IMG/VR virus record: IMGVR_UViG_3300025718_000009
Coordinates: 1-52,871 of that record
Length of the DNA: 52,871 bases
DNA from: a virus
Lineage: Duplodnaviria > Caudoviricetes
Direction: 5' to 3' (one strand)
The notes under the pieces were generated by a model, which was not told the DNA's origin, did not search any database, and worked only from the letters and a program-made list of their open reading frames with translations. Of the stretch, positions 1 to 52,642 are shown piece by piece. Numbering within the stretch: the first letter of the stretch is position 1; each line of letters opens with the position of its first letter. The position numbers and the translations under genes were made by a program.

Positions 1-127
1 AATCAAACAGTTGCGTCAAGGTGAATTTGATCTTTTTGTGAGTACGACGATCTTGGAACGCGGTATCACCTTGCCAGGGATACAAGTGGTGGTTCTAGGG
101 GCAGATCATCCTGTGTTTGATGAGCGT
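1..127 (+). pseudogene. comFA: comFA (DEAD/DEAH competence helicase), upstream part, interrupted by the prophage; begins before the window
   Basis: Frame from nt 2 reads IKQLRQGEFDLFVSTTILERGITLPGIQVVVLGADHPVFDER; TTILERG(I/V)T is the ComFA helicase motif V. Confidence 0.85.
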
Positions 128-1616: not shown

Positions 1617-1636
1617 TATGCTCACCCCTGATAAAT

Positions 1637-1906: not shown

Positions 1907-2305
1907 CTACCGTTTACTCGCTTTTCTCGCTTCTTTCTCGTGTAATTCAATTAGATTTTTTAGGAATTCCAATGAGAAAATTTCCTTCTCGTCGACTTCC
2001 TGTATTAACGAGATGTAGGGAAGGCTTTTTTGCTTAGCAACATATTCCTTAATGCTGTCAGGAAGTTCCACTTTATTTAAGTCGGCTAGTTGCTCCAATG
2101 TCATATTGTGCTTATCTAGTAGGTAAGATGAGCTAACGCCTAATGCCTCGGCCACCTTCTCTAATGACTTTATCGACATATTACATTTCCCGTTCTCCGC
2201 ATCTGATAAATAAGAAAGTGATAACCCTGTGATATTGTGTAGATCAGTTAATGAAATGTTTCTTATTCGTTCTCTTACATATTTGATCTTTTGGCCGTAC
2301 TCCAT
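1907..2305 (-). CDS. CI-like XRE HTH repressor (no S24 peptidase domain)
   Basis: HTH LTDLHNITGLSLSYLSDAENGKCNMS; divergent from cro-like gene. Confidence 0.85.
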   Translation of the reverse strand: MEYGQKIKYVRERIRNISLTDLHNITGLSLSYLSDAENGKCNMSIKSLEKVAEALGVSSSYLLDKHNMTLEQLADLNKVELPDSIKEYVAKQKSLPYISLIQEVDEKEIFSLEFLKNLIELHEKEARKASKR

Positions 2306-3569: not shown

Positions 3570-4475
3570 GTGGATAACGCTTTAACAATTACGACAGTTA
3601 ATAATTATCCGGCCGAGACGTTTAACCGGCTTTTCCCCGCAACAATGACTGAGATCAGTCCCTTGCACAAAATTATGGTAAATATCGTTCAGATCAATAC
3701 GGATATCACGGCTAAGGAAGTATACAAGCAGAAGAATGGAGAACTCAGCCTCACAAAAATAGCCTGCATGAAATTGATGACAGCGGCTAACGTGGTTATG
3801 GAGGATTCTAAGTCAATTTTACCGCAAGGGTGCCAAAGGTGTATCGAAGTATCACGATCAACACGACTTGCGCCGCAGTGCAACGGATGTCCGACTAAAG
3901 AAGATGTTGCTTATCAAGTATCAATACTTGTTCCAGAACCATCAGGTGGTCACCGTAGATATATTGCCACAAAGGAAGTTACTAAAAAGGATACCCAGGC
4001 TAAGAGTAATCCGCTAGAACACATGGGTGCTAATTGTGAGACCAAGGCATTACTCAGGGCGCTGCGTGCAGGACTAGGACTCAAGGGATCATATACACCG
4101 GCTGAGTTATCAAAGCCTTTTGCGGTCGCGTTAGTGGTATTGAACACAACAGATCCAGACATGAAGGCAGCACTGATTCAGAGATACGCTGCCGGCCAGG
4201 ATGCTCTGTTTGGAGGATCCTCGGAAAGCCATCAATTACCAGCTGGGAATCTCCAGCAACTCCCTGAGGGAACGATCAATGGTGAAGTTAAGGTTGTTGG
4301 TCCGGATCCAGAGGACGACAACGATGATATACCATGGGATCAGGCGAAGTGTGAAGTATGTCAGAAGCCAATTCAGGCCGTTGGTGATTGGACCGTAGCA
4401 ATGATAGTAGATCATCTGAAAGCTAAGTATGGAAAAGTCGTTTGTGAATCATGCAGAATGGGAGGAGCGAAGTAA
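3570..4475 (+). CDS. Putative recombination protein with two CxxC pairs and C-terminal zinc finger
   Basis: CQRC/CNGC, DDDIPW, CEVC...CESC; precedes SbcCD. Confidence 0.5.
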   Translation: MDNALTITTVNNYPAETFNRLFPATMTEISPLHKIMVNIVQINTDITAKEVYKQKNGELSLTKIACMKLMTAANVVMEDSKSILPQGCQRCIEVSRSTRLAPQCNGCPTKEDVAYQVSILVPEPSGGHRRYIATKEVTKKDTQAKSNPLEHMGANCETKALLRALRAGLGLKGSYTPAELSKPFAVALVVLNTTDPDMKAALIQRYAAGQDALFGGSSESHQLPAGNLQQLPEGTINGEVKVVGPDPEDDNDDIPWDQAKCEVCQKPIQAVGDWTVAMIVDHLKAKYGKVVCESCRMGGAK

Positions 4476-7400
4476 TGAGAATTTTACACACTGCCGATTG
4501 GCATATTGGGGAATTATCCGGTCCAGTAATTGAAGGGAAGAATGCACGACTTCAAGATACCTTGAAATGCGTAGACCACCTAGTTGAGTACGCACAAAGA
4601 GAGCAGCCGGATGCGATTCTCATCTCTGGTGATCTCTTCGATAAGTCAAAACTATGGGGAGACAGTATGTTGTCGCTTATCGATCAAGTAGCACAGCGGT
4701 TACGCGCTCTTGCTGGAATTGCTCCCACGGTTTTAATGTTTGGGACTGATAACCACGATAGTATGAAGGCTTTTCAGAATATAAGCGAGATGCGTATAGC
4801 GGATTTACATGTTTTGATGAATCCCGATATTTTCACAATTAATACAGAGTCTGGGCTATTACAGATTGCCTGCGTTCCAGGCTTCGATAAAGGATACTTC
4901 CGAGCAAAGTTCCCTGGCATGGCGCCGGCGGATGAACACATGATGTGCAGCCAATTCCTTGGAGACATGGTCAACGGACTAAGCGCACAACTGGATCCGA
5001 CAGTCCCGAGCGTATTAATGGCTCATTACACGGTCGTTGGATGCGAACTAGACAATGGACAGCACGTATTTACTCAGTCCGAAGTTGTTTTGCCTAAGGA
5101 AGCACTCGCCGGGAGCGCGTTCGACCTAGTGGCATTGGGACATATTCACCGGGCACAGAGAGTCGAAGGAATTGAGAAGCCAGTGTTCTACTCCGGTCCT
5201 GTCAATGGGATCACGTTTAACGAAGAAGGGCAAGACAAGGGATTTTGGATGCACGAGATCGGTACGATCGAAACTGACGAGGAATCAGAGATGCCTAATT
5301 ATGTAGAGTCAGAGTTCATTGTTACGCCGTACAGGAAATTCTTAACGTTAAAGGCTGACTTCACAGAATCGATTAACTTACCTCTTGATCTTAATATGGA
5401 ACTTGTTCATCCCTTATTTCCGAACACAGTCGGGAGGATCGTCCGCCTAGAATATGAATGCACGGAAGAACAGAAGCCCATACTTAATCACAAGGAAATG
5501 GAGTCATTAATTAAGTCCGGTGGAGCATTCCATGTATCAGAAGTTAAGGCTAAACGGATCATCACGGCCCTAGCAAAACAGGATCTAACTGAAACGTCTG
5601 GGCCTCTGGAAAACTTAGCAGCCTGGTTAACTGTCGAAGGGTTCAGCATAGAGGATGCAGTTCCTGTCCTCGAACTATCAAGGCCATTAATAGACACAAT
5701 CTCAGCCAAGATGCCAACCGGCACGCTGAGCGGAGTATTCGAACCACGATCGCTGGAAGTTAAGAACTATCGGTCATATCTTGGAGAAACGTTTAATTTT
5801 AAAGACATCTTCTTTGCCACTGTGAACGGCCCTAATGGAATTGGTAAATCTAGTTTCTTCATGGATGCGATTTCAGATTGTCTTTATGAGGAAACACGCA
5901 CAGGGATAACTGGCAGCTGGATAACAAACGGTCAAACTGATGGAATGATGCAATTCGAGTTTTCAATGGGAGTAACCAATTGGCGAGTGATCCGGACGAG
6001 GAGCATTAAGGGCAGCGGGAAGATTACCCTGGCGTTGCAGGAGCTCTTGTCTGATAAGTGGGAAGATCGATCGGGCACTACAACCAGACAAACTCAGGAA
6101 AAAGTCGAAGCCTTACTGGGTATGGATTGCTCCACGTTCCGTTGCACAGCCTTAATCATGCAAGATGCCTATGGATTATTCATGGAAGCCGATAAGGAAG
6201 CTCGCATGGGAGTCCTGGCTAATCTCCTTGGGTTGAGTATCTACGATCAATTAACTGATTTAGCTAAGGCGAAGGTCACGGAGTTGAATCGGAGTCTTAC
6301 GATATCCAAAGCGAAATTAGAGGATTTGGACGAAAAACTTAAGGCTAAACCGGGAGTTATGGAAGAGGTAAATGTTTACGAATCAGACCTTAATCAAGTC
6401 GCAGCGGATATCACCGCCAAGGAAAGCGAGATAAAGATTGCCGAAGAATTAGTCCGGGTCCTTAAGGGTAAGGCTGAGAAGGTTGAGGAGCTCAGGAAGC
6501 AAGGTAGTGTGCTTAATTATGAGGTAGCAAGCAAGCAAATAGATATCTTGGAGAATCAGAAACAGTCTGAGAGGGCCACTCAGATGTTGGCTAATGAAGA
6601 ACAGATTATTGCTAAGGCTAAAGAGTATGTAACGGTAAAGGATCAGGTCTTGGTGCTGGAAACTAAAAAACCTAAGTGGCTGGAGATTGGAAATAACCGC
6701 GTGAAAATTGCCCGTGACATAACCTTATTGGATCTACAAATAAAAAGACTTGCTCCACAGATAAGTGAACTGGAGAAAGTATTGGCGAGCAAACCTGAAT
6801 TGGACATAGCTGCCGATCGGTATAAGTCAGAGGTCATTAGACTTGAGGTAATGGATGCTCTGTCAGCTAAGGCTGCGGATATGAACCAATTAATCATGAA
6901 TGCAGAGAAGGACACTGATAGGACAGGGGAAGAGATAGACCTTAAGCGAGTCGCCCTTAAGCAAAAGCAATCAAAGCTTGAGGAACTAATTAGAAAGTCC
7001 GCTATGCTGGCAAATGCAAACTGCATTGATCCCGATAACGCTAAGTGTGCTTTTTTGGCTGATGCCCAGAAGGCTAAGGCTCAACTTCCAGTGGCCGAAG
7101 AGGAAATCAAGATTGCTGTGCAAGAAATTACCGACATGCATGAGACCCGTAAGCCGTTTTTACAAATCGTGGTGGACTTAGAAATACAGAACAAGGCTAT
7201 AGGTTACGAGAGAATCCGGGATGGGCAAGCTCATTATGACCTAAGGAATCTAGTAAATACCCTACGTCCCAAGGCAGAACTCGCAGGTCAACTAGACTCC
7301 AAAGCTGAGTTACTCAAGGGACTTCTCGAACAATCGTATGACAGTACACAACGCCAAATTGACTTAGGGTCACAACTTACAGACATAACTTTTCAGTGTG

Positions 7401-8323
7401 TTGCCCTGGACGGTGAACTAAAGGAATTACCAATACTAGTTGAACGTCTCCCCAAACTCCTGCAATGGGTTAGTGCTAAAGAAGAACTCCCAGCAGCACG
7501 CCAACTCATATCTTCTGTTTCTGACATCATCAAGGGCATTGAGTCAGACATAACCGCTAAGCAAGTCCAGATGAAGGCTATCGACGATGAGATAGAGCTG
7601 TGCCGTGCTGAAGCCGCTAAGTTAACAGATGCCACACGAAGCGTCCAGACGTCATACGACTATCTAAAATACCTTCAAGGCAAACAACTCGAATTCCACG
7701 AGAAGATCGGAGCCCTAACCTCTCAACTAAAAACACTCGCCAAGTACGATGCGGATCGGCTGCAGCTCATTTCTGACATGGCACCAACGGCTAAGGATCT
7801 TACCAGTTATCAAACTCTCACCAAAGCCTTTGGTCTCGATGGAATCCCTTTCTCCATCGTTCGCTCGGTAGTGCCGGAATTATCCTACATGTCCAACGAT
7901 ATCTTAGGCCAAATGACTGGCGGGAAGATGGCACTCGAAATGAGCACGGAGCGAGTCCAAAAGAATAAGAAAGAAGTTAACGCCCTGGAGGTGTGGATCA
8001 CAGACTACAGAGGCCGAATCCCTTATGGCGATCGTTCCGGAGGGGAGAAGGTTAAGGCTGCGCTGGCAAATGCGTTTGCTCTCGCTGACCTCAAGGCCCG
8101 GAGAGTTGGAATCCAGCTGGGGATGATGTTTGTGGATGAACCGCCCTTCTTAGATGCAGCCGGTGCTGAAGCTTACTGTGATGCTCTGGAGCAATTAAAT
8201 TATAGGTACCCGAATATGAGGGTTATCGCAATCTCTCACGATCCGGCCATGAAGGCAAGATTCCCGCAACAAATCGACGTGGTGGATATGGGCGACGAGG
8301 GAAGTAAAGTGAGAATCGCGTAA
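4475..8323 (+). CDS. SbcD-SbcC (Mre11-Rad50) fusion nuclease/ATPase
   Basis: HTADWH, GDLFD, NHD, LGHIH phosphoesterase motifs; Walker A GPNGIGKS, coiled coil, SGGE signature, VDEP Walker B, ISH. Confidence 0.92.
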   Translation: MRILHTADWHIGELSGPVIEGKNARLQDTLKCVDHLVEYAQREQPDAILISGDLFDKSKLWGDSMLSLIDQVAQRLRALAGIAPTVLMFGTDNHDSMKAFQNISEMRIADLHVLMNPDIFTINTESGLLQIACVPGFDKGYFRAKFPGMAPADEHMMCSQFLGDMVNGLSAQLDPTVPSVLMAHYTVVGCELDNGQHVFTQSEVVLPKEALAGSAFDLVALGHIHRAQRVEGIEKPVFYSGPVNGITFNEEGQDKGFWMHEIGTIETDEESEMPNYVESEFIVTPYRKFLTLKADFTESINLPLDLNMELVHPLFPNTVGRIVRLEYECTEEQKPILNHKEMESLIKSGGAFHVSEVKAKRIITALAKQDLTETSGPLENLAAWLTVEGFSIEDAVPVLELSRPLIDTISAKMPTGTLSGVFEPRSLEVKNYRSYLGETFNFKDIFFATVNGPNGIGKSSFFMDAISDCLYEETRTGITGSWITNGQTDGMMQFEFSMGVTNWRVIRTRSIKGSGKITLALQELLSDKWEDRSGTTTRQTQEKVEALLGMDCSTFRCTALIMQDAYGLFMEADKEARMGVLANLLGLSIYDQLTDLAKAKVTELNRSLTISKAKLEDLDEKLKAKPGVMEEVNVYESDLNQVAADITAKESEIKIAEELVRVLKGKAEKVEELRKQGSVLNYEVASKQIDILENQKQSERATQMLANEEQIIAKAKEYVTVKDQVLVLETKKPKWLEIGNNRVKIARDITLLDLQIKRLAPQISELEKVLASKPELDIAADRYKSEVIRLEVMDALSAKAADMNQLIMNAEKDTDRTGEEIDLKRVALKQKQSKLEELIRKSAMLANANCIDPDNAKCAFLADAQKAKAQLPVAEEEIKIAVQEITDMHETRKPFLQIVVDLEIQNKAIGYERIRDGQAHYDLRNLVNTLRPKAELAGQLDSKAELLKGLLEQSYDSTQRQIDLGSQLTDITFQCVALDGELKELPILVERLPKLLQWVSAKEELPAARQLISSVSDIIKGIESDITAKQVQMKAIDDEIELCRAEAAKLTDATRSVQTSYDYLKYLQGKQLEFHEKIGALTSQLKTLAKYDADRLQLISDMAPTAKDLTSYQTLTKAFGLDGIPFSIVRSVVPELSYMSNDILGQMTGGKMALEMSTERVQKNKKEVNALEVWITDYRGRIPYGDRSGGEKVKAALANAFALADLKARRVGIQLGMMFVDEPPFLDAAGAEAYCDALEQLNYRYPNMRVIAISHDPAMKARFPQQIDVVDMGDEGSKVRIA

Positions 8324-13705: not shown

Positions 13706-15013
13706 ATGATGGATAAAAACCCATATTTACCAGGTACCCCAGAAGAGTACATACAGGCCAATATGGGTTTAGCTCAATTAATCGCTTGGAAGTTTTTCAG
13801 GGCCTCCAAGGATAGAGATATTGATGATCTAGTGGGAATTGCTTATCACGGACTAGTCAAATCGTATCAACGATTTGATCCCACTAATCGTCTCGGCATA
13901 GATGCTAAGCCGATAAAATTCAGTACGTATGCTGGGTCAATGATTAAGGGCTATATTATGACCTATCTTCGTCAAGTTAACCGTCCTATTCATCTTGGAA
14001 GAAGGGGAATAGATTTAATCGCTAAGATCAATATTGCAGGTCTAAACGGCAACGAAACGATTCAGGAAATCGCAATCAAAGCTGGAATTAGCGTGGATGA
14101 TGCCAATGAAGCAGTTATGGCGAGTATAGCCGCGAACCCGGATACTCTAGAACGCAAGATTGCAATGGATGATGGCGGTGGACATGTTACCTTAGCTGAC
14201 ATGATAGGCGAAAAAGTTGAGAGCAATGACGATCAGGAAACAATAAAGGATTTTACAGCTCAATTAACCCCACGGCTTTACGAGGTTTATAAATTGCGAA
14301 TGGTTGAAGAACTGTCACAACTTGAAGCATCTAAGGTTATGGGTTTTACTCAATCTTACTTTTGCCGCCTTGAAGCGAAACTTATGGAAGTAGCCCGACA
14401 GTATGGATCAAAGATGAGGCTGGCTGGCGGAATTAAAAGTATAAATGAGGAGGAAGAAATTATGTCAAGTATTGAACAACGCGAAAACAGTAAAAAATTA
14501 CGCGGAGAGATCACGACTATTGAACAGTTCGAGTCCATTGGATCATATGCTGAGGTTGCTAAAAAGTATCTAGTCAGTGTTGCAACGTCCCATGCGCTCA
14601 AGATGTCCCTGAAGGATAAGAAGGTCAGGGAGGATGATAGTTTTGTTCCTTCTCCAGATCCCTCTATTGAACGTAAGGCGTATGAGGAACCAATCTTGGA
14701 AGAGATCGTCCAGGTACATCCAGAGGTAGAGATTCAGGTAACTCCTGAAGAGGTATCATCTGTGGAAGAAAAATGGTGCTTAAGTCCAGAAGGGATAGAA
14801 GAGGCACGTAATATGTCAAAGGAACTTCTATACGACAAGCGACTAGATGATCCCTTTATCGAGCCAGAGCCACTGCTGGTAAAGAAAGAGCGAACATCTG
14901 AAGAACTATTAAGAAACATTAAGTCTGATATAAGAGAACTTCACAAAATGCATACTTATCGCTCTGAAATGAGATTCCAAGCACAGCTCAGGGGGTTAAT
15001 TGAAGAATGCTAA
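13706..15013 (+). CDS. SigF/SigG/SigB-like sigma-70 factor with C-terminal extension
   Basis: DDLVGIAYHGLVKSYQRFDP, KFSTYAGSMIKGYI, region-4 HTH SQLEASKVMGFTQSYFCRLE. Confidence 0.85.
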   Translation: MMDKNPYLPGTPEEYIQANMGLAQLIAWKFFRASKDRDIDDLVGIAYHGLVKSYQRFDPTNRLGIDAKPIKFSTYAGSMIKGYIMTYLRQVNRPIHLGRRGIDLIAKINIAGLNGNETIQEIAIKAGISVDDANEAVMASIAANPDTLERKIAMDDGGGHVTLADMIGEKVESNDDQETIKDFTAQLTPRLYEVYKLRMVEELSQLEASKVMGFTQSYFCRLEAKLMEVARQYGSKMRLAGGIKSINEEEEIMSSIEQRENSKKLRGEITTIEQFESIGSYAEVAKKYLVSVATSHALKMSLKDKKVREDDSFVPSPDPSIERKAYEEPILEEIVQVHPEVEIQVTPEEVSSVEEKWCLSPEGIEEARNMSKELLYDKRLDDPFIEPEPLLVKKERTSEELLRNIKSDIRELHKMHTYRSEMRFQAQLRGLIEEC

Positions 15014-40059: not shown

Positions 40060-40413
40060 ATGGCAGAGGCGGTAGATCTAGAGGTAAAGATGGCCGTAAT
40101 GGAAGTGCGTATATCCGAGATTGTTAATCCTCTAGCAACTAAGATTGATAAGCTAACTGACAGCGTAAACAGCATGAATATTGCCTTCTCCGATATGAAA
40201 AATAATTTTGTGGGTAAGGAAGAGTTTAAGACAACATGCACTGACTACGACAAGCAATTTGAGGTAGCCAAGATCCAAAACGATAAAGAGCTTGAAAAAG
40301 TAAAATCTGGCCAGAAAAGCGTAATTCGTTCGGCAGTTACAGCAACCGTCGCGCTGGTCGTTTTTTTACTTCAGCAACTTTTTAATATTCACATTAAGGT
40401 AGGAGGAGGATGA
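40060..40413 (+). CDS. XhlA-like/holin-accessory coiled-coil protein with C-terminal TM helix
   Basis: Coiled coil + TM; precedes endolysin. Confidence 0.6.
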   Translation: MAEAVDLEVKMAVMEVRISEIVNPLATKIDKLTDSVNSMNIAFSDMKNNFVGKEEFKTTCTDYDKQFEVAKIQNDKELEKVKSGQKSVIRSAVTATVALVVFLLQQLFNIHIKVGGG

Positions 40414-41273
40414 TTATGAAAGCAGTAGTTAATTTCGGGCATGGTCCAAAGAATGTTGGATTCGATCCGGGGGCCGTGGGATCTGACGGATACCAAGAAG
40501 CCACTGTAACTCGCAATGTCGGGAGCAAGGTCGTCACAAAGCTAAAGGCGAACGGATGGAACGTTCTCGCCATTCAAGACGGGGATCTCCCAGACGTAAC
40601 CAACCAAGCAAACGCCTTTAAGCCAGACTACTTTGTTTCTATTCACGCTGACTCGTTCGCTACCCCGGATGCACACGGCATTACTACTTTCGCATTATCC
40701 CCAGGGGGCAAAGGGCAAAACATAGCACAGGCAATTCAAAATGATTTAGTTGCTGCAACGGGCCTGACCGATCGAGGAGTTAAGTTTGAGGGCTTATGGG
40801 TTCTAAGAAAAACCGATTGCCCCGCCGTACTCGTTGAGATTGGGTTTATTTCGAATCCTGCCGAAGAAGCTCTCATGAAACAGGATGCCTGGGATGATAA
40901 GGTGGCCAACGCGATCGCCAAGGGATTCAGTCGGGCTGTGGGTGCTGCTTATTCAGGATCTATTCCAGCCGCCGTGGTCGCTCCGGTTCCAGTTACTTCA
41001 ATAAAGAAAGAGGATGATTTTGTGTTAGAAACCGCGATTGTTGTTTATGGACCCGATGATCTTGTTTCGGCTCGCCGTGTTGCTGTAGTTAAAGGCGGAT
41101 GTGCTATATTTATCCGTTCAGCGGACGGGAAAGCTCCTTTAGACGTGTTTAAAGCAAAGCAACTCATAATCATCGGTGGCGCGACAGTCGGGCATCCGAA
41201 CGAAGTCCTAGTGACCGGAGACTCGTGGTTTAATACGGTGGCATCTGTAAATAAATTTTTAGGAGGAAAATAA
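40410..41273 (+). CDS. N-acetylmuramoyl-L-alanine amidase endolysin (Amidase_3)
   Basis: GHG..DPGA, FVSIHAD, PAVLVEIGFISN. Confidence 0.93.
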   Translation: MIMKAVVNFGHGPKNVGFDPGAVGSDGYQEATVTRNVGSKVVTKLKANGWNVLAIQDGDLPDVTNQANAFKPDYFVSIHADSFATPDAHGITTFALSPGGKGQNIAQAIQNDLVAATGLTDRGVKFEGLWVLRKTDCPAVLVEIGFISNPAEEALMKQDAWDDKVANAIAKGFSRAVGAAYSGSIPAAVVAPVPVTSIKKEDDFVLETAIVVYGPDDLVSARRVAVVKGGCAIFIRSADGKAPLDVFKAKQLIIIGGATVGHPNEVLVTGDSWFNTVASVNKFLGGK

Positions 41274-46844: not shown

Positions 46845-47303
46845 TTACTGTGGTGGATTACAGACGCTACATGGTTCGTATCCACTCTTCGCATCCGATA
46901 AGCTAATTGGGATTTTGCTCTTCGATAAGTACCGGCAACCGTCTCGGTGATACTTTGATCCGGTATTAGTTACGAATACCGCTACCCCTTGATTAGTTTG
47001 TTTGGGGGCTGGCGAAGGGGTTGCAACAGGGGGTTTGGCAGGAGATGGGGCTACAACAGCGGGCTTAGGAGTTGGGGTAGGTGCGGCAGTAACCGCAGGA
47101 GCTGGGGGTGGTGTGGGCGATGGACTAACGGTAGGAGTAGGCGTAGGAGTAGGTGCAGGGGTGCTGGCGGCTTGTGTTTGGTCTACCGCTTTTACAGGGC
47201 TTGTTGCTGGGACTGCGTTGCTAGAGCATCCGCTAACCGCCAATAATAGAGCAAGGGATATGACTGAGAATTTCATTTTCCGAAAGGCATTCAAAAGATT
47301 CAC
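46845..47303 (-). CDS. Lipoprotein with Pro/Thr stalk and C-terminal Ada-metal-binding-like domain
   Basis: Lipobox AVSGC; TGSKYHRDGCRYL...GYEPCSVC. Confidence 0.8.
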   Translation of the reverse strand: MNLLNAFRKMKFSVISLALLLAVSGCSSNAVPATSPVKAVDQTQAASTPAPTPTPTPTVSPSPTPPPAPAVTAAPTPTPKPAVVAPSPAKPPVATPSPAPKQTNQGVAVFVTNTGSKYHRDGCRYLSKSKIPISLSDAKSGYEPCSVCNPPQ

Positions 47304-47452: not shown

Positions 47453-47959
47453 TTAGTTGGCTGTTATCTTATTAAAGGCAGCTTCGTATTCTTTGGCCTG
47501 TGTTGGAGTTAATGCTCCATCTATGCGTAGAAGTACATTTCCCTTAAGGTACAGATATTGTGTGAACATTGATGAGCTCTTTGATATTCCATCTACATAT
47601 GTCTCCCTAGTTTTAGCATCTTGTGGATTGGCGAAGACCTCTACTGATCCGCCAGTTGGGTAATCCTTGCTGAGTTGTTCTGTTCTCGTGTCAGCGAAGC
47701 TAACCTTGCTAGTATATTGGTTAGGTCTTCCAAGCAATTTATTTGTGTCAGTGTCTTCCGTGTAAACGACTACGCCACTCATTGTAGGTATATTGGCCTT
47801 AATGCTATTACCTATTCCCTCTGCAGTAATGACTTTAGCCGGTTGAACGGCCTCCTTGGCTGGCGCAGACGTCGAGGGAGTCGCGACTGTAGAAGAGGAT
47901 CCGCATCCCAATAACGAGATCATTAACCCGATGGATAATAAATACATAATTTTTTTCAT
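47453..47959 (-). CDS. Phage lipoprotein
   Basis: Lipobox LLGC; EDTDTNKLLGRPNQYTSK. Confidence 0.8.
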   Translation of the reverse strand: MKKIMYLLSIGLMISLLGCGSSSTVATPSTSAPAKEAVQPAKVITAEGIGNSIKANIPTMSGVVVYTEDTDTNKLLGRPNQYTSKVSFADTRTEQLSKDYPTGGSVEVFANPQDAKTRETYVDGISKSSSMFTQYLYLKGNVLLRIDGALTPTQAKEYEAAFNKITAN

Positions 47960-48478: not shown

Positions 48479-49156
48479 TTACAACAATAAAACCGGAATC
48501 AAAATCTTAAACATCAAGGCCAATCCCCCAATTAGAGCCACATTCCCAATAAGTGCTTTACTTTCATCATCTAGGGAAGGGGGTACCGGAATCTCCAATG
48601 GTGCTACCTCTGGCTTTCGATCTGGCAGCTCCTTCTTATCAGTCAAGTTCTTCTTAATAGTTTCGAGGTATTTTTCAAAGGTGTCATTATTTTTAAGATG
48701 CTCACCGACTTCAACCTTAATCTTTTCCTCAATTCCATCTGCTGTGATCTTTCGTTCATAAGTGATGCTGTCTTTTGGTATGGGTGCTGGTCTGCCAACA
48801 TCTACTAGCTTGCTGCCGTTCTTTAGCTTATTGCCGATCTTAGCTGTGAGCCAATTACCTAGTGCATCCCCTCGCATCTCAGCAATTTCATATCCCTTTG
48901 GTAGACCAACGACTAACTGACTACCGGGCGCAATCTTTGACCACATTCCTAGGCTATATGCGCCCATTGCTGGATCTTCCTCTGACCAGAACAGTGATGT
49001 CTGAAGAGGGTTATTAGATGGGTAAGGGTAGAGGTAGTATAGATTGCTTGACGCTGCCGCTTTAAAGGGATTAGAGAGGTTTAATCCGATGAGGATGAGG
49101 ATTACGGCAAGGGCTAGTGTACGCTTGACTGAGGATTTACGTAAAACTATAAACAT
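48479..49156 (-). CDS. Exported protein with signal peptide and C-terminal membrane anchor
   Basis: LALAVILILIGL...KAAA; C-terminal GNVALIGGLALMFKILIPVLLL. Confidence 0.7.
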   Translation of the reverse strand: MFIVLRKSSVKRTLALAVILILIGLNLSNPFKAAASSNLYYLYPYPSNNPLQTSLFWSEEDPAMGAYSLGMWSKIAPGSQLVVGLPKGYEIAEMRGDALGNWLTAKIGNKLKNGSKLVDVGRPAPIPKDSITYERKITADGIEEKIKVEVGEHLKNNDTFEKYLETIKKNLTDKKELPDRKPEVAPLEIPVPPSLDDESKALIGNVALIGGLALMFKILIPVLLL

Positions 49157-49167
49157 AATTTTCCCCC

Positions 49168-49881
49168 CTATTTCATCCAAACTTTAGGATCAATCGTCTT
49201 TCCACCAACTCTGATTTCAAAATGTAAGTGCGGGCCAGTTGAGTTACCGGTTGAACCGGATAACCCAACCACATTATCATTACCCCATAGTTTCTTACCT
49301 GGTGTGGCAGTTACCTTGCTGAGATGAGCATAAAGGGTTACCCATCCCCCGCCATGATCGACCATTACATAATTACCATAAATATCATCTTTGTTAATAG
49401 CAATAACCTTTCCTTCTCTGGACACCTTTACCGTTGTTCCGTCTTTGACAGCAAAATCAATTCCGTGGTGATCTGCTCCTTTGTATTCCTGGGTAATTGT
49501 TCCTACTGCCGGAAGATCAAAGCGTATTGAGCTTGGTCTAAGTTTTTCCATAATCGTTAGTCCGGGAGGATACTTCGATGCACCGGTTCCAATTAGCGGA
49601 ATGTTTTCCTTAGCTTCAGGCCAAGAGGTAACTGCATTAACTCCGTTTGTGGCAGTCTCTACGCCCTCCTTTACCTTTGTGTAAGTAATGCTGGCGTTAT
49701 GAACATCGTCGAGCACCTGGGTTAATCTAGGTCCTACAACACCTAATATTGTTAAGGCAAACCCCGCATAAAAGAGATACTTAACGACTTGTTTTGCGCC
49801 AGGAAAAGCTATCTCGACGAATATCCGAGTAATGACATACATGGCGCCCAACCTCATAATTCCTGCAATCATTGTGGCCAC
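49168..49881 (-). CDS. Membrane-anchored M23 (LytM) peptidase
   Basis: HHGID, YAHL, GNSTGPHLHFE; two N-terminal TM helices. Confidence 0.92.
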   Translation of the reverse strand: MATMIAGIMRLGAMYVITRIFVEIAFPGAKQVVKYLFYAGFALTILGVVGPRLTQVLDDVHNASITYTKVKEGVETATNGVNAVTSWPEAKENIPLIGTGASKYPPGLTIMEKLRPSSIRFDLPAVGTITQEYKGADHHGIDFAVKDGTTVKVSREGKVIAINKDDIYGNYVMVDHGGGWVTLYAHLSKVTATPGKKLWGNDNVVGLSGSTGNSTGPHLHFEIRVGGKTIDPKVWMK

Positions 49882-50099
49882 GCTCCCCCTGAGCTGATGG
49901 TTGCAGCGACATTCATGAGTTTCCCCACTGTACTAACCATCATTAAGGCGATTGATCCGTAGGCGAGCATCTCCAAGAACTGAGCGTAACGGCTATATCC
50001 CAATACATTTAGGATCATTTTGAGTAAGAATAATCCTCCGGCAATTTTGACAATAAGGAACATATTAGCTAAGACAATGTTGATAGCGGCATCACCCAT
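49869..50099 (-). CDS. SpoIIIAC/AD-like two-TM protein (76 aa)
   Basis: KIAG...ILNVLGYSRYAQFLEMLAY resembles SpoIIIAC as I recall it (QIAG...ILDQMGKKEYAQWVTLLGF); AAGGAG RBS. Confidence 0.6.
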   Translation of the reverse strand: MGDAAINIVLANMFLIVKIAGGLFLLKMILNVLGYSRYAQFLEMLAYGSIALMMVSTVGKLMNVAATISSGGAWPQ

Positions 50100-50802
50100 G
50101 ACTAGCCAACTCCTTTTGCTTACTAATTTCTCTTGCTCTGAGTGCGATTCTCCAACATAGGCCCCTGAGTTCATCCAGTGTGTAAAAAGCTGTGGTGACA
50201 TTCTTCATGCCTGATAGTTCATTGAGAACCTGGCGTTTGATGGCATCGTAGGATTCAGCGGTGACTACTATTAAGGTTAACTGCTGGTCATTCGCAAAGG
50301 ATCCAAATAAGGCTTTGTAGTTTTTATCCCAATCACTGACAGAACTGCTGACTTGGAATTCTCCGAAGTAATGGTTAATTCCCCATTTTGCATGGATAGT
50401 TTTACAGTAAGCATCAGGTCTAATCTTAAATATTGACTCGAACTTTGTTTCCTCATCTTTATAATAGATGAGTTTTTCTTCACTCCCTGGCATTGTCCGG
50501 ATATTGAGGGAAGTGTAAAGCCACGATTTACCCAGCCGGTGTTGAATTTGATCTGGACGCTTCTCATCATAATTGTGGAACCAATCTGGCGTATCTGACC
50601 ATGTCATCCTTACTCTGCGGATCAAATGATTTTCCTCAAGTCTTTGAGTGCAGCGGTGTGACATTTCGGTGCTGACATTTCCAAACTCAAGTAAATGGAT
50701 TTGCTCCTGAGATAAGACGTTTAATGCTTTGAGATGCGCCAGCACTCTCTGATCTCGTTTGCGACCTTGGACGTGGGTAGTTGGTTTCTGGTTCATAGTC
50801 AT
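50092..50802 (-). CDS. Replication-relaxation (Replic_Relax) family protein
   Basis: RDQRVL..L..LNVLSQEQI wHTH, IQHRL, IRPDAY...F.E; follows FtsK. Confidence 0.75.
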   Translation of the reverse strand: MTMNQKPTTHVQGRKRDQRVLAHLKALNVLSQEQIHLLEFGNVSTEMSHRCTQRLEENHLIRRVRMTWSDTPDWFHNYDEKRPDQIQHRLGKSWLYTSLNIRTMPGSEEKLIYYKDEETKFESIFKIRPDAYCKTIHAKWGINHYFGEFQVSSSVSDWDKNYKALFGSFANDQQLTLIVVTAESYDAIKRQVLNELSGMKNVTTAFYTLDELRGLCWRIALRAREISKQKELASHG

Positions 50803-52057
50803 GTACCTCCCCTTGAATGTCTTGATATGGCATGGCTAACTTTGGCAATTTATCCATGAGCTGATGGAAGAGTTTGGGGTCCTTTGCCTTTGAGGGGAAG
50901 TAAGGGACCTGAATCTCTGTTTCCTCGCTAAACTTGTAGATGGCACGACCTGGTATCTTGGGGAGGTAGGCGGCTTTATCTGAATCAAGAATAATTTGGC
51001 TGTTCACAGGATCCGCCGTTCTAAAACATATCCTTGATTCAAATTGACTCTTGAATTCGCTGAATTCGTTTGAGCTTCCCCATGCTTTAGCTGATGGCCT
51101 TTGGGTAGCTGCCCATACATAGATTCCTTGGGAACGATATTTGCGAACTGCTTTAATCATTAGCTTCCTGCAATTCTTATCCTCTCCGAGATCAGTAACC
51201 TCATCAGCGACTACAACAACGAATGGAAGTTGTTTACCTAGTGCATGGTATTCGATGATGTTGTTTGCCTTGCCGCCGATTAAATCCTGTCGTCTTTCAT
51301 TTTCCTCGTCCAGCATTTCTAATAATTGAAGTATTTCATCCATATCATGTACCCATATCGCTCCATAATCCTCAAAGTATTTGAACTCCTTGATCTTAGG
51401 GTCGATGATGCAGACGATAACCCTAGGATTAAGTAAATCTGTGTTAAGGCTTAGAAGACTGTATATAGCTCCGTGGAAGAGAACTGACTTACCACTTCCT
51501 CTAAGCCCCCCAGTAAGGATTGTTACGAGTTCTGCCATGTCTACAATAATGGGTCCACTTGCGCTATAACCGAGTAGGATAGGCAGCTCCATTTTCTTTA
51601 AGTAAGGTAGAGACTCGAAAGTGAAGGGATATGATCGGTCGAGTAATATGTTTGAGATAGTCATAATGACCGACAGTCCATTCTTTTCAATCTCACAGGA
51701 TCCGTTCCCAATTGCTGTGGCAAAATGCTTTTCCTTACTCTTAAACTCAGAGTAATCGCACCCGGCCGGCAAGTGGATAATTAGGCACCATGTTTGTTTT
51801 TTCTTTGGCTTGACCGTTATCCAGTACATAATCTCCTGGGTACTAAACTTCTTAGGAAGACTTAAGTGCTGTTTGGTTGATTCCTTGGGAGAACTTAATG
51901 TCTTGCGAAAGATAAAAGGTTTCATGGGAGCTGATTTGTAGAGGATTTGGATTGTGTCATAAACTGAGCTTGGTATCTCATCTTCAGGTCCGCGATAGAG
52001 CGATCTCATGACAGCTTCTTTTAGGTTCTGCCCGAGGTTATCATCCTTCTTGGACAT
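50687..52057 (-). CDS. FtsK/SpoIIIE-family ATPase
   Basis: GGLRGSGKS, IIDPK, VVVADE, ATQRP, IPGRAI. Confidence 0.93.
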   Translation of the reverse strand: MSKKDDNLGQNLKEAVMRSLYRGPEDEIPSSVYDTIQILYKSAPMKPFIFRKTLSSPKESTKQHLSLPKKFSTQEIMYWITVKPKKKQTWCLIIHLPAGCDYSEFKSKEKHFATAIGNGSCEIEKNGLSVIMTISNILLDRSYPFTFESLPYLKKMELPILLGYSASGPIIVDMAELVTILTGGLRGSGKSVLFHGAIYSLLSLNTDLLNPRVIVCIIDPKIKEFKYFEDYGAIWVHDMDEILQLLEMLDEENERRQDLIGGKANNIIEYHALGKQLPFVVVVADEVTDLGEDKNCRKLMIKAVRKYRSQGIYVWAATQRPSAKAWGSSNEFSEFKSQFESRICFRTADPVNSQIILDSDKAAYLPKIPGRAIYKFSEETEIQVPYFPSKAKDPKLFHQLMDKLPKLAMPYQDIQGEVHDYEPETNYPRPRSQTRSESAGASQSIKRLISGANPFT

Positions 52058-52071
52058 TATCTTTTCACTCC

Positions 52072-52206
52072 TTACTTTGTGAGAAACATCAATGCTCCAT
52101 GGATGATCTGCTGTACGGCAACGTAAGCAGCGTCAACGGTTTCACGTCTGATGACTAATGGGTAGATCTTACTTGCAGTAATGGCTGTGATCATGAAAAA
52201 CGGCAT
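52072..52206 (-). CDS. Small hydrophobic protein (44 aa)
   Basis: MPFFMITAITASKIYP...; start overlaps upstream stop. Confidence 0.5.
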   Translation of the reverse strand: MPFFMITAITASKIYPLVIRRETVDAAYVAVQQIIHGALMFLTK

Positions 52207-52391
52207 TAACCATCCACCCCCAACTTCGCAACTAATCCCTCTAAGGCAATCAGCATTTCCTCGCATTGTTCCTTACTTGGCGGTGCAACCTTCAACAAGA
52301 ATGGGAAAATAAAAAGCAATGCCCTTAACCTCATGTAGAATATGTGGCCGTGCATCTTATTCCTAATAACTCCCGCAACCGGTTTATTCAT
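52206..52391 (-). CDS. Small protein with hydrophobic segment (61 aa)
   Basis: AAGGAG RBS; coupled ORF. Confidence 0.55.
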   Translation of the reverse strand: MNKPVAGVIRNKMHGHIFYMRLRALLFIFPFLLKVAPPSKEQCEEMLIALEGLVAKLGVDG

Positions 52392-52587
52392 CGTCGTCTC
52401 CACTCCTTTCAAAACACTTCATATCATCGACCGTTCCAATTAGGCCCCTCTTAATTAGAAGTAACATTACGGCTTCGCGAACAATATCTGAGGGCAATTC
52501 GCCCTCTTTCAGTTCCAAACGTCCTACGCCTAGTCTTATGTCCCTGTCGTTGCGCCTGATCTTTGCCCTTAACTCCGCTACCTTCAC
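52384..52587 (-). CDS. Small putative ribbon-helix-helix regulator
   Basis: ELRAKIR...SDIVREAV; GGAGGTGA RBS before GTG. Confidence 0.55.
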   Translation of the reverse strand: MKVAELRAKIRRNDRDIRLGVGRLELKEGELPSDIVREAVMLLLIKRGLIGTVDDMKCFERSGDDDE

Positions 52588-52642
52588 CGCGTCACCTCCA
52601 TGTTGCGTTTGCGCCATGCTTTAGTGTACTTTTCGATATAAT

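What the first reader, a model, noticed from the sequence alone, without database searches (positions are those of the whole stretch)
48479..52587. 8-gene FtsK + Replic_Relax + SpoIIIAC-like + M23 operon: candidate phage DNA-translocation system built from sporulation-channel-like parts
Seen: eight tightly packed or overlapping minus-strand genes. They encode an RHH-like regulator, two small hydrophobic ORFs, an FtsK/SpoIIIE ATPase with no obvious TM or gamma domain, a Replic_Relax wHTH/nuclease-like protein, a 76-aa two-TM protein, a two-TM M23 peptidase and an exported, C-terminally anchored protein. Known: FtsK + Replic_Relax pairs recur in Bacillus temperate phages and, to my knowledge, have no demonstrated function. 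SpoIIIA proteins plus the M23-fold SpoIIQ form the mother cell-forespore channel, and SpoIIIE pumps DNA into the forespore. Inference: the 76-aa protein resembles SpoIIIAC (IAG...IL..xG...YAQ), and the M23 N-terminus (VEIAFPGAKQVVKY) loosely resembles SpoIIIAF. The operon may move excised phage DNA across a membrane and wall without virions, either into the forespore or cell-to-cell like Streptomyces TraB. No VirB4/T4SS genes are present. The phage has a separate holin and amidase, so the M23 is unlikely to be for lysis.
Basis: partly seen in the sequence, partly recalled or inferred. Interest (0 to 1): 0.88.

Follow-up and report, generated by a model that had tools for sequence, protein, structure and literature searches.

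The report
Phage FtsK–nuclease–wall-peptidase gene cassette
A small gene cassette that recurs in otherwise unrelated phages of spore-forming soil bacteria joins a DNA-pumping motor and a site-specific nuclease to a membrane-anchored cell-wall-cutting enzyme, which suggests an unstudied way of moving phage DNA, though it shows no kinship to the sporulation channel proteins.

Summary
The eight packed minus-strand ORFs are real. The window is an 83 %-complete temperate tailed phage. Confirmed: an FtsK motor without TM or gamma domain, and an M23 peptidase with intact catalytic residues behind two TM helices. Also confirmed: a 76-aa two-TM protein and an exported protein anchored at both ends. The 236-aa protein misses Pfam Replic_Relax directly (E 0.22). 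It belongs transitively: 15 of 21 distant relatives hit PF13814, and hhalign gives 98.4 %. PF13814 is the MOBC relaxase class.

The SpoIIIAC and SpoIIIAF resemblances fail every profile test.

Co-conservation is strong. FtsK-RR-2TM-M23-g8 is intact in 13 of 13 related loci. It lies in two complete phages that share almost nothing else with the window. A second lineage keeps RHH-FtsK-RR-2TM-M23, and a third copy lies in an integrated prophage. The two host genomes seen carry Spo0A.

Function is untested. Best reading (0.35): a T4SS-independent, conjugation-like DNA processing and export module. Rivals: forespore capture, plasmid-prophage maintenance plus an envelope moron, or defence.

The parts
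52384..52587 (-). g1, 67 aa from the GTG behind GGAGGTG (the ORF is open up to the ATG at 52617). Small basic protein, probably ribbon-helix-helix: a candidate regulator or relaxosome accessory factor.
   Evidence: Homologues lie directly upstream of FtsK in L017 and in 10 of 11 group-B loci. The PDB profile search puts two CopG/Arc/MetJ antitoxins on top at E 0.015 and 0.027. No Pfam hit.
52206..52391 (-). g2, 61 aa small protein, not a convincing membrane protein. An accessory, movable member of the cassette.
   Evidence: A tblastn match at 1.7e-5 to an ORF lying between M23 and g8 in L015. A similar-looking ORF sits in the same place in G009; this likeness was judged by eye only.
52072..52206 (-). 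g3, 44-aa ORF overlapping the g2 stop. Doubtful gene.
   Evidence: No homologue found; no family hit.
50687..52057 (-). g4, 456-aa FtsK/SpoIIIE-type alpha-beta motor ATPase. Has Walker A GSGKS. No TM and no gamma domain. Its tail overlaps g5 by 116 nt.
   Evidence: PF01580 2.8e-11; phrog_1358 3.4e-46. Best solved relative is TcpA of pCW3-type plasmids, 6o1z E 2.6e-17, then FtsK 2iuu 1.8e-13. The N-terminal 150 residues resemble the FtsK_alpha fold, TM 0.47-0.58, a lead only. No TM-grade stretch.
50092..50802 (-). g5, 236-aa wHTH plus PD-(D/E)xK nuclease-fold protein. A divergent Replic_Relax (PF13814 / MOBC-class) member with conserved H88, E117, D130, E148, K160, Y162.
   Evidence: AF2 C-domain blocks have pLDDT 66-93, mostly above 85. 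Fold hits are nearly all PD-(D/E)xK nucleases; the top one is nickase N.BspD6I, Z 8.5, rmsd 4.3, 135 aligned.
49869..50099 (-). g6, 76-aa two-TM protein with a conserved C-terminal S-x-G-x-W-P tail. Overlaps g5 and g7.
   Evidence: HMM hit in 13 of 13 group-A loci. No SpoIIIAC similarity.
49168..49881 (-). g7, 237-aa M23 (LytM) metallo-endopeptidase behind a strongly conserved double-TM N-terminus. Catalytic residues are intact.
48479..49156 (-). g8, 225 aa (233 from the TTG at 49180). Has an N-terminal signal-anchor, a conserved extracytoplasmic domain of about 150 aa, a Pro-rich linker and a C-terminal TM anchor. No known family.
   Evidence: (AF2 pLDDT 50.6, unusable).

Best explanation
The locus is a mobile phage-borne cassette whose conserved core is (RHH)-FtsK-Replic_Relax-2TM-M23, with g8 added in two of the three lineages. 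I read it as a T4SS-independent, conjugation-type module that processes DNA and exports it.

Proposed steps:
1. The RHH protein and the wHTH/PD-(D/E)xK protein (MOBC-class) recognise and nick or cut a specific site on phage or prophage DNA.
2. The soluble FtsK alpha-beta hexameric motor, whose closest solved relative is the conjugative coupling protein TcpA, takes that DNA and pumps it.
3. The three membrane proteins form the envelope part. These are the 2-TM protein, the membrane-tethered active M23 endopeptidase and, where present, the doubly anchored surface protein. They open the peptidoglycan locally and provide or dock a passage.

The result would be virion-free movement of phage DNA to another cell. 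It could act alone, as Streptomyces TraB or Thermus TdtA do, or by feeding a helper element's mating pore, as IMEs do.

Shown: gene order, family assignments, intact catalytic residues, membrane topology features, co-conservation across unrelated phages, and orientation antisense to the lytic genes. Inferred: every biochemical step, the DNA substrate, and the destination of the DNA.
For: (1) Co-conservation. All five core genes are found in order in 13 of 13 group-A loci by HMM. By tblastn, four genes are found in 13 of 13 and g6 in 9 of 13.

(2) The complete phages G001 (66.5 kb) and G002 (67.2 kb, 127-bp terminal repeat; portal, TerL and DnaB by PHROGs) share with the window only the cassette and a few small genes.

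(3) A second lineage (FtsK 30-39 % identical) keeps RHH in 10 of 11 loci, RR in 10 of 11 and M23 in 9 of 11. A 78-82-aa two-TM ORF lies between RR and M23 in 4 of 4 loci inspected. A third divergent full copy lies in prophage-like DNA of genome G009.

(4) Translational coupling: overlaps of 8-116 nt.

(5) g5 is a PF13814 relative. CONJscan equates PF13814 with MOBC relaxases (passages of PMC5357655). MOBC relaxases are PD-(D/E)xK enzymes with site-specific activity shown for pAD1 TraX (passages of PMC6499999 and PMC12857230). The g5 model is nuclease-fold, with a site-specific nickase as top match.

(6) g4's best solved relative is TcpA. FtsK-like coupling proteins placed upstream of non-canonical relaxases are the usual IME/ICE mobilisation module.

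(7) Most relaxosome auxiliary proteins are RHH proteins (passage of PMC12857230).

(8) Peptidoglycan hydrolases accompany Gram-positive transfer systems. For example, an M23 protein sits next to the VirB4-like gene of pGS18.

(9) Precedent for transfer driven by an FtsK/HerA-type ATPase plus nucleases without a T4SS: Thermus TdtA (abstract of PMC5365140).
Against: No transfer, nicking or ATPase assay exists for any member.

- g4 lacks the N-terminal TM domain that anchors TcpA. None of the three membrane proteins resembles VirB6, VirB8 or any known channel.
- g5 itself is below Pfam's threshold.
- No conserved non-coding site (oriT- or clt-like) was found beside the cassette. The window ends about 250 nt upstream of g1.
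- Of the 789 plasmid records that match g4, MOB-suite (as given by PLSDB) types 433 as non-mobilizable, 300 as mobilizable and 56 as conjugative. Among the FtsK-RR carriers inspected, the Priestia plasmid and pMU3262 are typed non-mobilizable.
- FtsK genes, with an RR-like or nuclease-like neighbour in the case of Bfsp1, also occur in virulent and phi29-like Bacillus phages, where conjugation makes little sense.
- In some relatives the cassette lies beside ParM or ParA partition genes, which fits maintenance as well.
- g8 is absent from group B, and L037 has lost the M23 catalytic domain.
- Many counted loci are near-duplicates (L008=L014, L030=L031, L032-34, L035=L036), and nearly all come from a few related metagenomes. 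Independent observations are therefore fewer than the counts suggest.
Confidence: 0.35

Rival explanations
1. Forespore or daughter-cell capture. The RR adaptor marks phage DNA (an episome or excised prophage) and the FtsK motor drives it across the sporulation or division septum. The M23 enzyme thins septal peptidoglycan, so the phage genome ends up in the spore.
For: Both host genomes seen carry full-length Spo0A: G004 (by binning) and G009 (by integration). G004 also has spoIIIAC/AD.

4 of 6 cassette-bearing phage records encode a stand-alone Spo0A_C protein above Pfam's cut-off, so these phages probably interfere with sporulation.

Relatives of g4 in phage records are mostly from Bacillus (194 of 289). 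The literature repeatedly speculates on a sporulation role (passages of PMC4113786 and PMC3853050).

One plasmid, pMU3262, has a genuine SpoIIIAC/AD-family gene and a Spo0E gene flanking an FtsK-RR pair.
Against: No component is related to SpoIIIA proteins, and the M23 has no special likeness to SpoIIQ.

The motor has no membrane anchor. An integrated prophage, as in G009, reaches the forespore with the chromosome anyway.

The window and G001 lack the Spo0A_C gene. FtsK hits also occur in phages of non-sporulating Staphylococcus, Listeria and Mycobacterium.

Host evidence rests on two genomes.
Confidence: 0.2
2. Two functions that merely travel together. FtsK-RR would serve replication, dimer resolution or partition of an extrachromosomal prophage inside the cell. 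The 2TM-M23-g8 part would be an envelope moron, for example superinfection exclusion, wall remodelling or an auxiliary holin/endolysin-like pair.
For: The FtsK-RR pair occurs without any M23 in Bacillus phages and phage-plasmids. RR sits by CopG and ParM in pGS18. ParM or ParA lie upstream in L038 and L007.

Variable small genes are inserted between M23 and g8. 2 of 10 g6 members give weak Phage_holin_Dp1 hits, best E 0.012.

The position, between the lysis and lysogeny modules and antisense to the lytic genes, is typical for morons.
Against: RR-2TM-M23 keep overlapping or nearly abutting reading frames (overlaps of 8 and 13 nt in the window). They keep the same order in three lineages whose FtsK proteins are only 30-39 % identical, and across unrelated phage backbones.

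The window has its own replication module and an integrase.
Confidence: 0.2
3. A prophage-encoded anti-phage or anti-plasmid defence or abortive-infection system: an ATPase, a nuclease and membrane effectors.
For: FtsK/HerA-type ATPases paired with nucleases occur in defence systems. g4's ATPase domain hits SspH (8.4e-17) and mad8 (1.5e-15) models in PADLOC. The cassette sits in a moron-like position on the strand of the repressor and integrase genes.
Against: Only the generic ATPase domain matches. None of the other seven proteins hits any of the 5027 PADLOC models at E<=0.01. An active wall endopeptidase is not a usual defence component. The RHH and MOBC-like context points to self-DNA processing.
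Confidence: 0.1

Closest known systems
Small-ORF / FtsK-SpoIIIE / Replic_Relax triad of Bacillus-type temperate phages and phage-plasmids (BtCS33, PK2, Bfsp1, Priestia pG5MAi6_3, RBClin15)
   Same: A TM-less FtsK motor of about 380-460 aa is followed by an overlapping wHTH+nuclease protein of about 200 aa. The triad lies between the lysis and lysogeny modules. The E-x-Q variant of the nuclease motif is shared, as read from alignments A1 and A2. hhalign gives 98.4 %.
   Different: FtsK identity is below 30 %. g5 has no tblastn match at E<=0.01 in 50,697 phage or 72,556 plasmid records. None of the known triads inspected carries the 2TM-M23-g8 extension. Their function is also untested (passages of PMC11526630, PMC3853050 and PMC4113786).
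TcpA coupling protein with non-canonical relaxase: mobilisation modules of Firmicute IMEs/ICEs and pCW3
   Same: An FtsK-like ATPase gene sits directly upstream of a non-HUH relaxase-class gene. TcpA is g4's best solved relative. An RHH-type accessory protein is typical.
   Different: TcpA has N-terminal TM helices and works with a VirB4-containing MPF_FA T4SS. Here there is no TM and no VirB4. In streptococcal IMEs, MOBC relaxases were paired with VirD4 and never with TcpA.
MOBC relaxases (pAD1 TraX, CloDF13 MobC) / Pfam Replic_Relax PF13814
   Same: N-terminal wHTH plus PD-(D/E)xK fold. Transitive profile membership.
   Different: g5 scores below the Pfam threshold itself. No nicking site is known.
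Streptomyces TraB/Spd and Thermus ICETh1 TdtA transfer systems
   Same: T4SS-independent DNA donation driven by an FtsK/HerA-type hexamer, with small membrane proteins (Spd; recalled) or nucleases (TdtA operon; abstract of PMC5365140).
   Different: The NCBIfam plasmid_TraB score is 23.5 bits against a cut-off of 800. TraB carries its own TM and wHTH domains (recalled). No M23 partner is described for either system (recalled; not searched).
SpoIIIE with the SpoIIIA-SpoIIQ sporulation channel
   Same: An FtsK-family motor and a LytM/M23-domain membrane protein in a spore-former context.
   Different: No SpoIIIAC, AD or AF similarity. The M23 is catalytically intact and not SpoIIQ-like. The motor lacks the SpoIIIE membrane domain.

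Membership tests
FtsK/SpoIIIE motor family (PF01580) | P-loop beta (motor) domain above the Pfam gathering score | tested here: met
   43.8 bits against a cut-off of 24; phrog_1358 3.4e-46.
Chromosomal FtsK/SpoIIIE translocases | N-terminal polytopic membrane domain | tested here: not met
   Maximum 19-residue Kyte-Doolittle mean is 1.39, and no window reaches 1.6.
Chromosomal FtsK/SpoIIIE translocases | C-terminal gamma (wHTH, KOPS/SRS-reading) domain | tested here: not met
   No FtsK_gamma hit at E<=0.1. The tail after residue ~415 is low-complexity and overlaps g5.
TcpA-type conjugative coupling proteins | FtsK-like soluble domain closest to TcpA | tested here: met
   6o1z E 2.6e-17 over residues 111-388, ahead of FtsK at 1.8e-13. 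Identity of the chain was checked with a pCW3-type tcpA gene, 5.9e-170. The margin over FtsK is small.
TcpA-type conjugative coupling proteins | N-terminal TM domain, and a VirB4-containing T4SS in the same element | tested here: not met
   No TM. PF12846 gives no match at E<=0.01 in the window, G001 or G002, the last two being 100 % complete.
Replic_Relax PF13814 / MOBC relaxases | Match to the Pfam model above the gathering score | tested here: not met
   E 0.22, 12.1 bits against a cut-off of 25.3, residues 21-65 only.
Replic_Relax PF13814 / MOBC relaxases | Homology by profile (transitive) | tested here: met
   A profile of the g5 family finds 25 representatives among 1.84e9 proteins. 15 of 21 aligned members hit PF13814, best 4.6e-12. 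hhalign against Bacillus-phage RR proteins gives 98.4 %, E 4.5e-15 over 165 columns. The narrower alignment A1 gave only 46.8 %.
Replic_Relax PF13814 / MOBC relaxases | PD-(D/E)xK fold with conserved acidic residues | tested here: met
   Invariant D130 and E148. By VIA, nearly all of the top 30 rows are PD-(D/E)xK nucleases, best Z 8.5. Foldseek gave no hit at E<=0.001.
Replic_Relax PF13814 / MOBC relaxases | Site-specific nicking at an oriT | not testable with these tools
   No conserved flanking site found.
SpoIIIAC/SpoIIIAD (PF06686) | Profile match of the 76-aa protein | tested here: not met
   No match in the window at E<=10, with B. subtilis as positive control. 0 of 10 family members match. 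hhalign to a true member gives 0.1 %.
SpoIIIAF (PF09581) | Profile match of the M23 N-terminus | tested here: not met
   No match at E<=10, with B. subtilis as positive control.
SpoIIQ | NCBIfam equivalog score | tested here: not met
   57.5 bits against a cut-off of 250; MepM scores 84.3 bits. SpoIIQ chains rank 18-19 in the PDB profile search.
Peptidase_M23 (active LytM endopeptidases) | Domain match and the HxxxD / H / HxH zinc and catalytic residues | tested here: met
   96.3 bits. H139, D142, H186, H218 and H220 are invariant in 10 of 10.
Ribbon-helix-helix (CopG/Arc/MetJ) proteins | Profile match of g1 | tested here: inconclusive
   No Pfam hit at E<=0.1. The top two PDB profile hits are CopG/Arc/MetJ antitoxins at E 0.015 and 0.027.
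Streptomyces TraB | NCBIfam plasmid_TraB equivalog | tested here: not met
   23.5 bits against a cut-off of 800.
Known anti-phage defence systems (PADLOC 2.0) | Hits for more than the generic ATPase domain | tested here: not met
   Only g4 hits (SspH, mad8). The other nine proteins scanned give none at E<=0.01.

The most novel reading that the evidence does not exclude
Temperate phages of endospore-forming Bacillota carry a self-contained, T4SS-independent DNA export machine. It consists of a relaxosome-like RHH and MOBC-type nuclease, a soluble FtsK/TcpA-type dsDNA motor, and a private membrane and wall-breaching unit (2-TM protein, tethered M23 endopeptidase, doubly anchored surface protein). 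This would give a phage a second, virion-free route: cell to cell or into the forespore. It would also give a function to the widespread but unexplained FtsK-Replic_Relax pairs of Bacillus phages.
Probability: 0.2. Interest if true: 0.9.

Novelty: new variant of a known kind. Interest (0 to 1): 0.62.

Why it matters
FtsK/SpoIIIE-Replic_Relax pairs are annotated in many Bacillus-group phages and phage-plasmids. In the papers seen here their role is only guessed at.

This cassette ties such a pair by gene overlap, and by conservation across unrelated phage backbones, to an active membrane-tethered wall hydrolase and two further membrane proteins. That argues the pair works at the envelope rather than only inside the cytoplasm.

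If it moves DNA, it would be a minimal Gram-positive DNA-transfer apparatus without VirB4. It would also blur the line between phages and mobilisable or conjugative elements.

If instead it loads phage DNA into spores, it would explain how non-integrated phages persist in spore-formers. Either outcome is directly testable once a cultivable carrier is found. G009-type prophages are the lead.

Tried and rejected
SpoIIIAC, AD and AF likeness: rejected.

Special SpoIIQ affinity of the M23: rejected.

Known defence system: rejected at the level of PADLOC 2.0.

Nucleotide similarity of the cassette to 50,697 phage records: none by blastn.

g5 and g8 by tblastn: no match in phages or plasmids (g5) or in plasmids (g8). 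The distant RR relative P0051 had no phage match and 6 plasmid records.

g6 word-based homologue search: found only itself.

g8: the AF2 model was too poor to search (pLDDT 50.6). The protein atlas gave no usable hit. The PDB profile search gave nothing below E 0.1.

Foldseek of the g5 model gave no hit at E<=0.001. VIA-wide was used instead.

Repeats, promoters and terminators around the cassette: nothing above shuffled expectation worth naming. Conserved non-coding elements next to the cassette: one marginal 80-nt match to the end of G001 (E 2e-4), and none upstream.

Complex prediction of FtsK with RR: no verdict (scores 0.00, 0.42, 0.00). It counts neither for nor against binding.

Expression: no RNA holder listed. 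Two DNA runs labelled peat metagenome hold the stretch, and one may be the source.

Literature: searches turned up no paper describing an FtsK-Replic_Relax-M23 cassette in phages. That is a statement about those searches only. Supplements were closed and not seen; Coluzzi et al.'s supplementary family tables could bear on TcpA and MOBC classification. Francia 2013 and Traore 2023 were seen only as citations inside other papers' passages.

Full report
**What the window is**

The window is a complete IMG/VR virus record of 52,871 bp, classed linear, with a CheckV completeness estimate of 83 %.

Pfam places the following on it:
- a large serine recombinase (66-1625, minus strand) and an HTH repressor-type gene (1907-2305, minus strand) at the left end;
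- a plus-strand block with an SbcCD-like fusion, a helicase, a sigma-like protein, a DUF927 primase-helicase, TerL, portal, prohead protease, capsid, tape measure, tail endopeptidase, Amidase_3 (40410-41273) and a Dam-type methylase.

From about 46.4 kb to the right end the genes run on the minus strand. The finding therefore lies where temperate Bacillus-type phages keep accessory genes: between the lysis and lysogeny modules, antisense to the lytic genes.

**The observation**

Eight consecutive minus-strand ORFs occupy 48479-52617. Using the starts that have a Shine-Dalgarno-like sequence, the junctions are -8, -1, +14, -116, -8, -13 and +11 nt. A 246-nt gap then separates g8 from the next gene.

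- g4 is an FtsK/SpoIIIE ATPase: PF01580 2.8e-11, phrog_1358 3.4e-46. It has no TM-grade segment and no gamma-domain hit. Its first 150 residues look like the FtsK alpha domain in the atlas structure search (TM 0.47-0.58, a lead only).
- g7 is a Peptidase_M23 protein (1.3e-27) behind two hydrophobic helices. In ten family members the zinc and catalytic residues (HxxxD, H186, HxH) are invariant. The double-TM N-terminus is among the best-conserved parts.
- g6 is a 73-76-aa two-helix membrane protein with a conserved C-terminal tail.
- g8 has a basic N-terminus with a signal-anchor, a conserved external domain of about 150 residues, a proline-rich linker and a C-terminal TM helix.
- g1 is a small basic protein. 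Its family gives CopG/Arc/MetJ antitoxins as the two best PDB profile hits, at a weak E of 0.015 and 0.027, and it has no Pfam hit.
- g2 is real but not convincingly hydrophobic. A homologue sits between M23 and g8 in L015.
- g3 (44 aa) has no support beyond an open frame.

**The 236-aa protein**

Directly, it fails Pfam Replic_Relax (E 0.22). It has no tblastn match in the phage or plasmid collections.

Its close family consists of 41 metagenomic proteins without Pfam domains. A profile of that family, searched against 1.84 billion representatives, finds only 25 proteins.

Of the 21 aligned distant members, 15 hit PF13814, best 4.6e-12. The widened alignment matches bona fide Replic_Relax proteins of phages BtCS33, PK2 and Bfsp1 at 98.4 % probability, E 4.5e-15, over 165 columns. 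The narrow alignment had given only 46.8 %.

The AlphaFold model has a confident C-terminal domain. Its structural neighbours are almost all PD-(D/E)xK nucleases, led by the site-specific nickase N.BspD6I (Z 8.5, rmsd 4.3 A, 135 residues). Foldseek alone stayed above E 0.001.

Invariant H88, E117, D130, E148, K160 and Y162 fit an active enzyme.

It is a PD-(D/E)xK family (passages of PMC3424549). Site-specific activity was shown for pAD1 TraX, as cited in passages of PMC6499999 and PMC12857230.

**The motor**

Among solved structures the best sequence match of g4 is the 'DNA translocase coupling protein' 6o1w-z (E 2.6e-17, residues 111-388). It comes ahead of Pseudomonas FtsK at 1.8e-13.

I confirmed that this chain is TcpA by querying with the FtsK-like gene that follows tcpM on a pCW3-type plasmid (5.9e-170).

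TcpA-type proteins placed upstream of non-canonical relaxases are the usual mobilisation module of Firmicute IMEs and ICEs. The margin over FtsK is small, and TcpA itself is FtsK-like (passage of PMC12857230). This is a pointer, not a classification.

**The sporulation-channel idea**

- PF06686 (SpoIIIAC/AD) finds nothing in the six-frame window at E<=10, while B. subtilis passes as control.
- None of 10 g6-family members hits it at E<=10.
- hhalign of the family against a genuine PF06686 protein gives 0.1 %.
- PF09581 (SpoIIIAF) finds nothing either.
- The M23 domain scores 57.5 bits to the SpoIIQ equivalog (cut-off 250), below MepM and ShyA.

So the 'built from sporulation-channel-like parts' reading is not supported.

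One observation goes the other way. On Thermoanaerobacterium plasmid pMU3262 a true PF06686 protein (3.9e-13) lies two genes upstream of an FtsK-Replic_Relax pair, and a Spo0E-family gene lies just downstream. It is a single case and unrelated to g6.

**Co-conservation**

Group A comprises 13 loci: 11 viral contigs and 2 MAG contigs. RR is 58-61 % identical and FtsK 53-79 %. HMMs of FtsK, RR, the 2-TM protein, M23 and g8 hit in that order in 13 of 13. By tblastn, four genes are found in 13 of 13 and g6 in 9 of 13. g1 is found in 1 of 13.

Two of these records are complete phages: G001 (66.5 kb) and G002 (67.2 kb, with a 127-bp terminal repeat; portal, a different TerL family, DnaB and SbcC by PHROGs). 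Searches cover these. Besides the cassette they share with the window only a repressor-like gene and a few small ORFs. They share almost no DNA with each other. In both, the cassette is antisense to most large ORFs.

Group B comprises 11 loci reached through a 377-aa FtsK that is 30-39 % identical to g4. It keeps the g1-like RHH in 10 of 11, RR in 10 of 11 and the TM-anchored M23 in 9 of 11. One locus is cut by its contig end, and L037 retains only the TM stub. A 78-82-aa two-TM ORF lies between RR and M23 in the 4 loci I read. g8 is absent.

A sample of 401 genomes of the phylum of MAG G004 gave RR-family matches in 2. One is G009, where a third, divergent full copy lies on a 375-kb contig: FtsK-RR-2TM-M23-small ORF-g8. 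It sits about 27 kb from a Phage_portal hit, the same spacing as in the window.

Many loci are near-duplicates and come from few habitats, so the number of independent observations is perhaps six to eight. Even so, three lineages and at least three unrelated backbones keep RR-2TM-M23 in overlapping or nearly abutting frames.

**Hosts**

All close homologues are metagenomic. The only organism label is 'Bacillota bacterium'.

G004 (by binning) and G009 (by integration) each have two full-length Spo0A genes, and G004 also has spoIIIAC/AD.

Unexpectedly, 4 of 6 cassette-bearing phage records encode a stand-alone Spo0A C-terminal domain protein above Pfam's cut-off. The window and G001 do not.

**Comparison with known systems**

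Known Bacillus-type phages and phage-plasmids carry a small ORF, FtsK and an overlapping Replic_Relax gene at the same genomic position, but no M23 extension. The papers seen offer only guesses about their role.

The window and both complete relatives lack a VirB4-like ATPase. No PADLOC system matches beyond the generic ATPase domain.

**Mechanism**

The parts list reads like the DNA-processing half of a Gram-positive transfer system joined to a wall-breaching membrane unit. The parts are an RHH-type protein, a MOBC-class nuclease, a TcpA/FtsK-type motor, an active tethered peptidoglycan endopeptidase and small membrane proteins.

I therefore put a T4SS-independent or helper-dependent, conjugation-like export of phage DNA first, at 0.35. 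Streptomyces TraB (recalled) and Thermus TdtA (abstract of PMC5365140) are precedents for such minimal systems.

Against this reading:
- the motor has no membrane anchor;
- no channel-type protein is recognisable;
- no cis site was found;
- the FtsK-RR carriers inspected are typed non-mobilizable;
- FtsK genes occur in virulent phages.

Forespore capture (0.2) gains from the Spo0A context but loses its proposed structural basis. A maintenance module riding with an envelope moron (0.2) fits the ParM/ParA neighbours but not the tight coupling across lineages. Defence gets 0.1. About 0.15 remains for something else.

**Verdict**

The sporulation-channel interpretation is wrong in its specifics. 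The cassette itself is a robust, apparently undescribed extension of a known but unexplained phage gene pair. I rate it a new variant of a known kind, interest 0.62.

Noticed in passing
L020:7212-9549 (pMU3262, Thermoanaerobacterium plasmid): A genuine SpoIIIAC/AD-family protein (PF06686, 3.9e-13) lies two genes upstream of an FtsK-Replic_Relax pair. A Spo0E-family gene lies just downstream. The plasmid also carries phage-like genes (Gam, SSB, dUTPase) and ParM. It is a single case.
   Followed up: partly
G002:C1:32252-32533; G003:C5:4837-5121; G004:C1:38035-38328; G005:C1:9830-10024: Four of six cassette-bearing phage records encode a short (121-146 aa) stand-alone Spo0A C-terminal DNA-binding domain protein above Pfam's cut-off. 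The window and G001 have none. This suggests these phages tamper with the sporulation master regulator.
   Followed up: partly
L053:7232-11359 (G009:C4, about 281-285 kb): A third, divergent full copy of the cassette lies on a 375-kb contig, about 27 kb from a Phage_portal hit. That genome has two full-length Spo0A genes. It is a possible route to a cultivable or at least genome-resolved host.
   Followed up: partly
L038:4648-5460 and L007:2582-3376: ParM-like (L038) and ParA-like (L007) partition genes lie directly upstream of the cassette. This hints that some carriers are plasmid-prophages. Both were recognised by eye from their N-terminal motifs, not by a family search.
   Followed up: no
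L024:393-1514 (G002): A transposase (phrog_506, 1.2e-45) sits immediately upstream of FtsK in G002, where other relatives have the RHH gene or regulators.
   Followed up: no
L037:2466-2654; L036:7131-7819: Decay or variation within group B. L037 keeps only the 62-aa TM stub of the M23 gene. L035 and L036 have an insertion of about 690 bp between FtsK and RR.
   Followed up: no
window 47453-47959 and 46845-47303 (minus strand): Two lipobox-bearing small proteins lie downstream of the cassette, probably in a separate transcription unit. The first matches phrog_8870, of unknown function (2.3e-9). The second has a Pro/Thr-rich linker and a Cys/His-rich C-terminus. They are candidate surface or exclusion proteins.
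   Followed up: no
window 13706-15013 and 4451-8323 (plus strand): A 435-aa protein has a weak Sigma70_r2 match (4e-5) and a long acidic C-terminal extension. A 1290-aa protein fuses a Metallophos (SbcD-like) domain to an SMC_N (SbcC-like) domain.
   Followed up: no
L005-L017, downstream of g8: Most group-A and group-B relatives carry a conserved 85-105-aa signal-peptide protein just after the cassette. The window lacks it.
   Followed up: no
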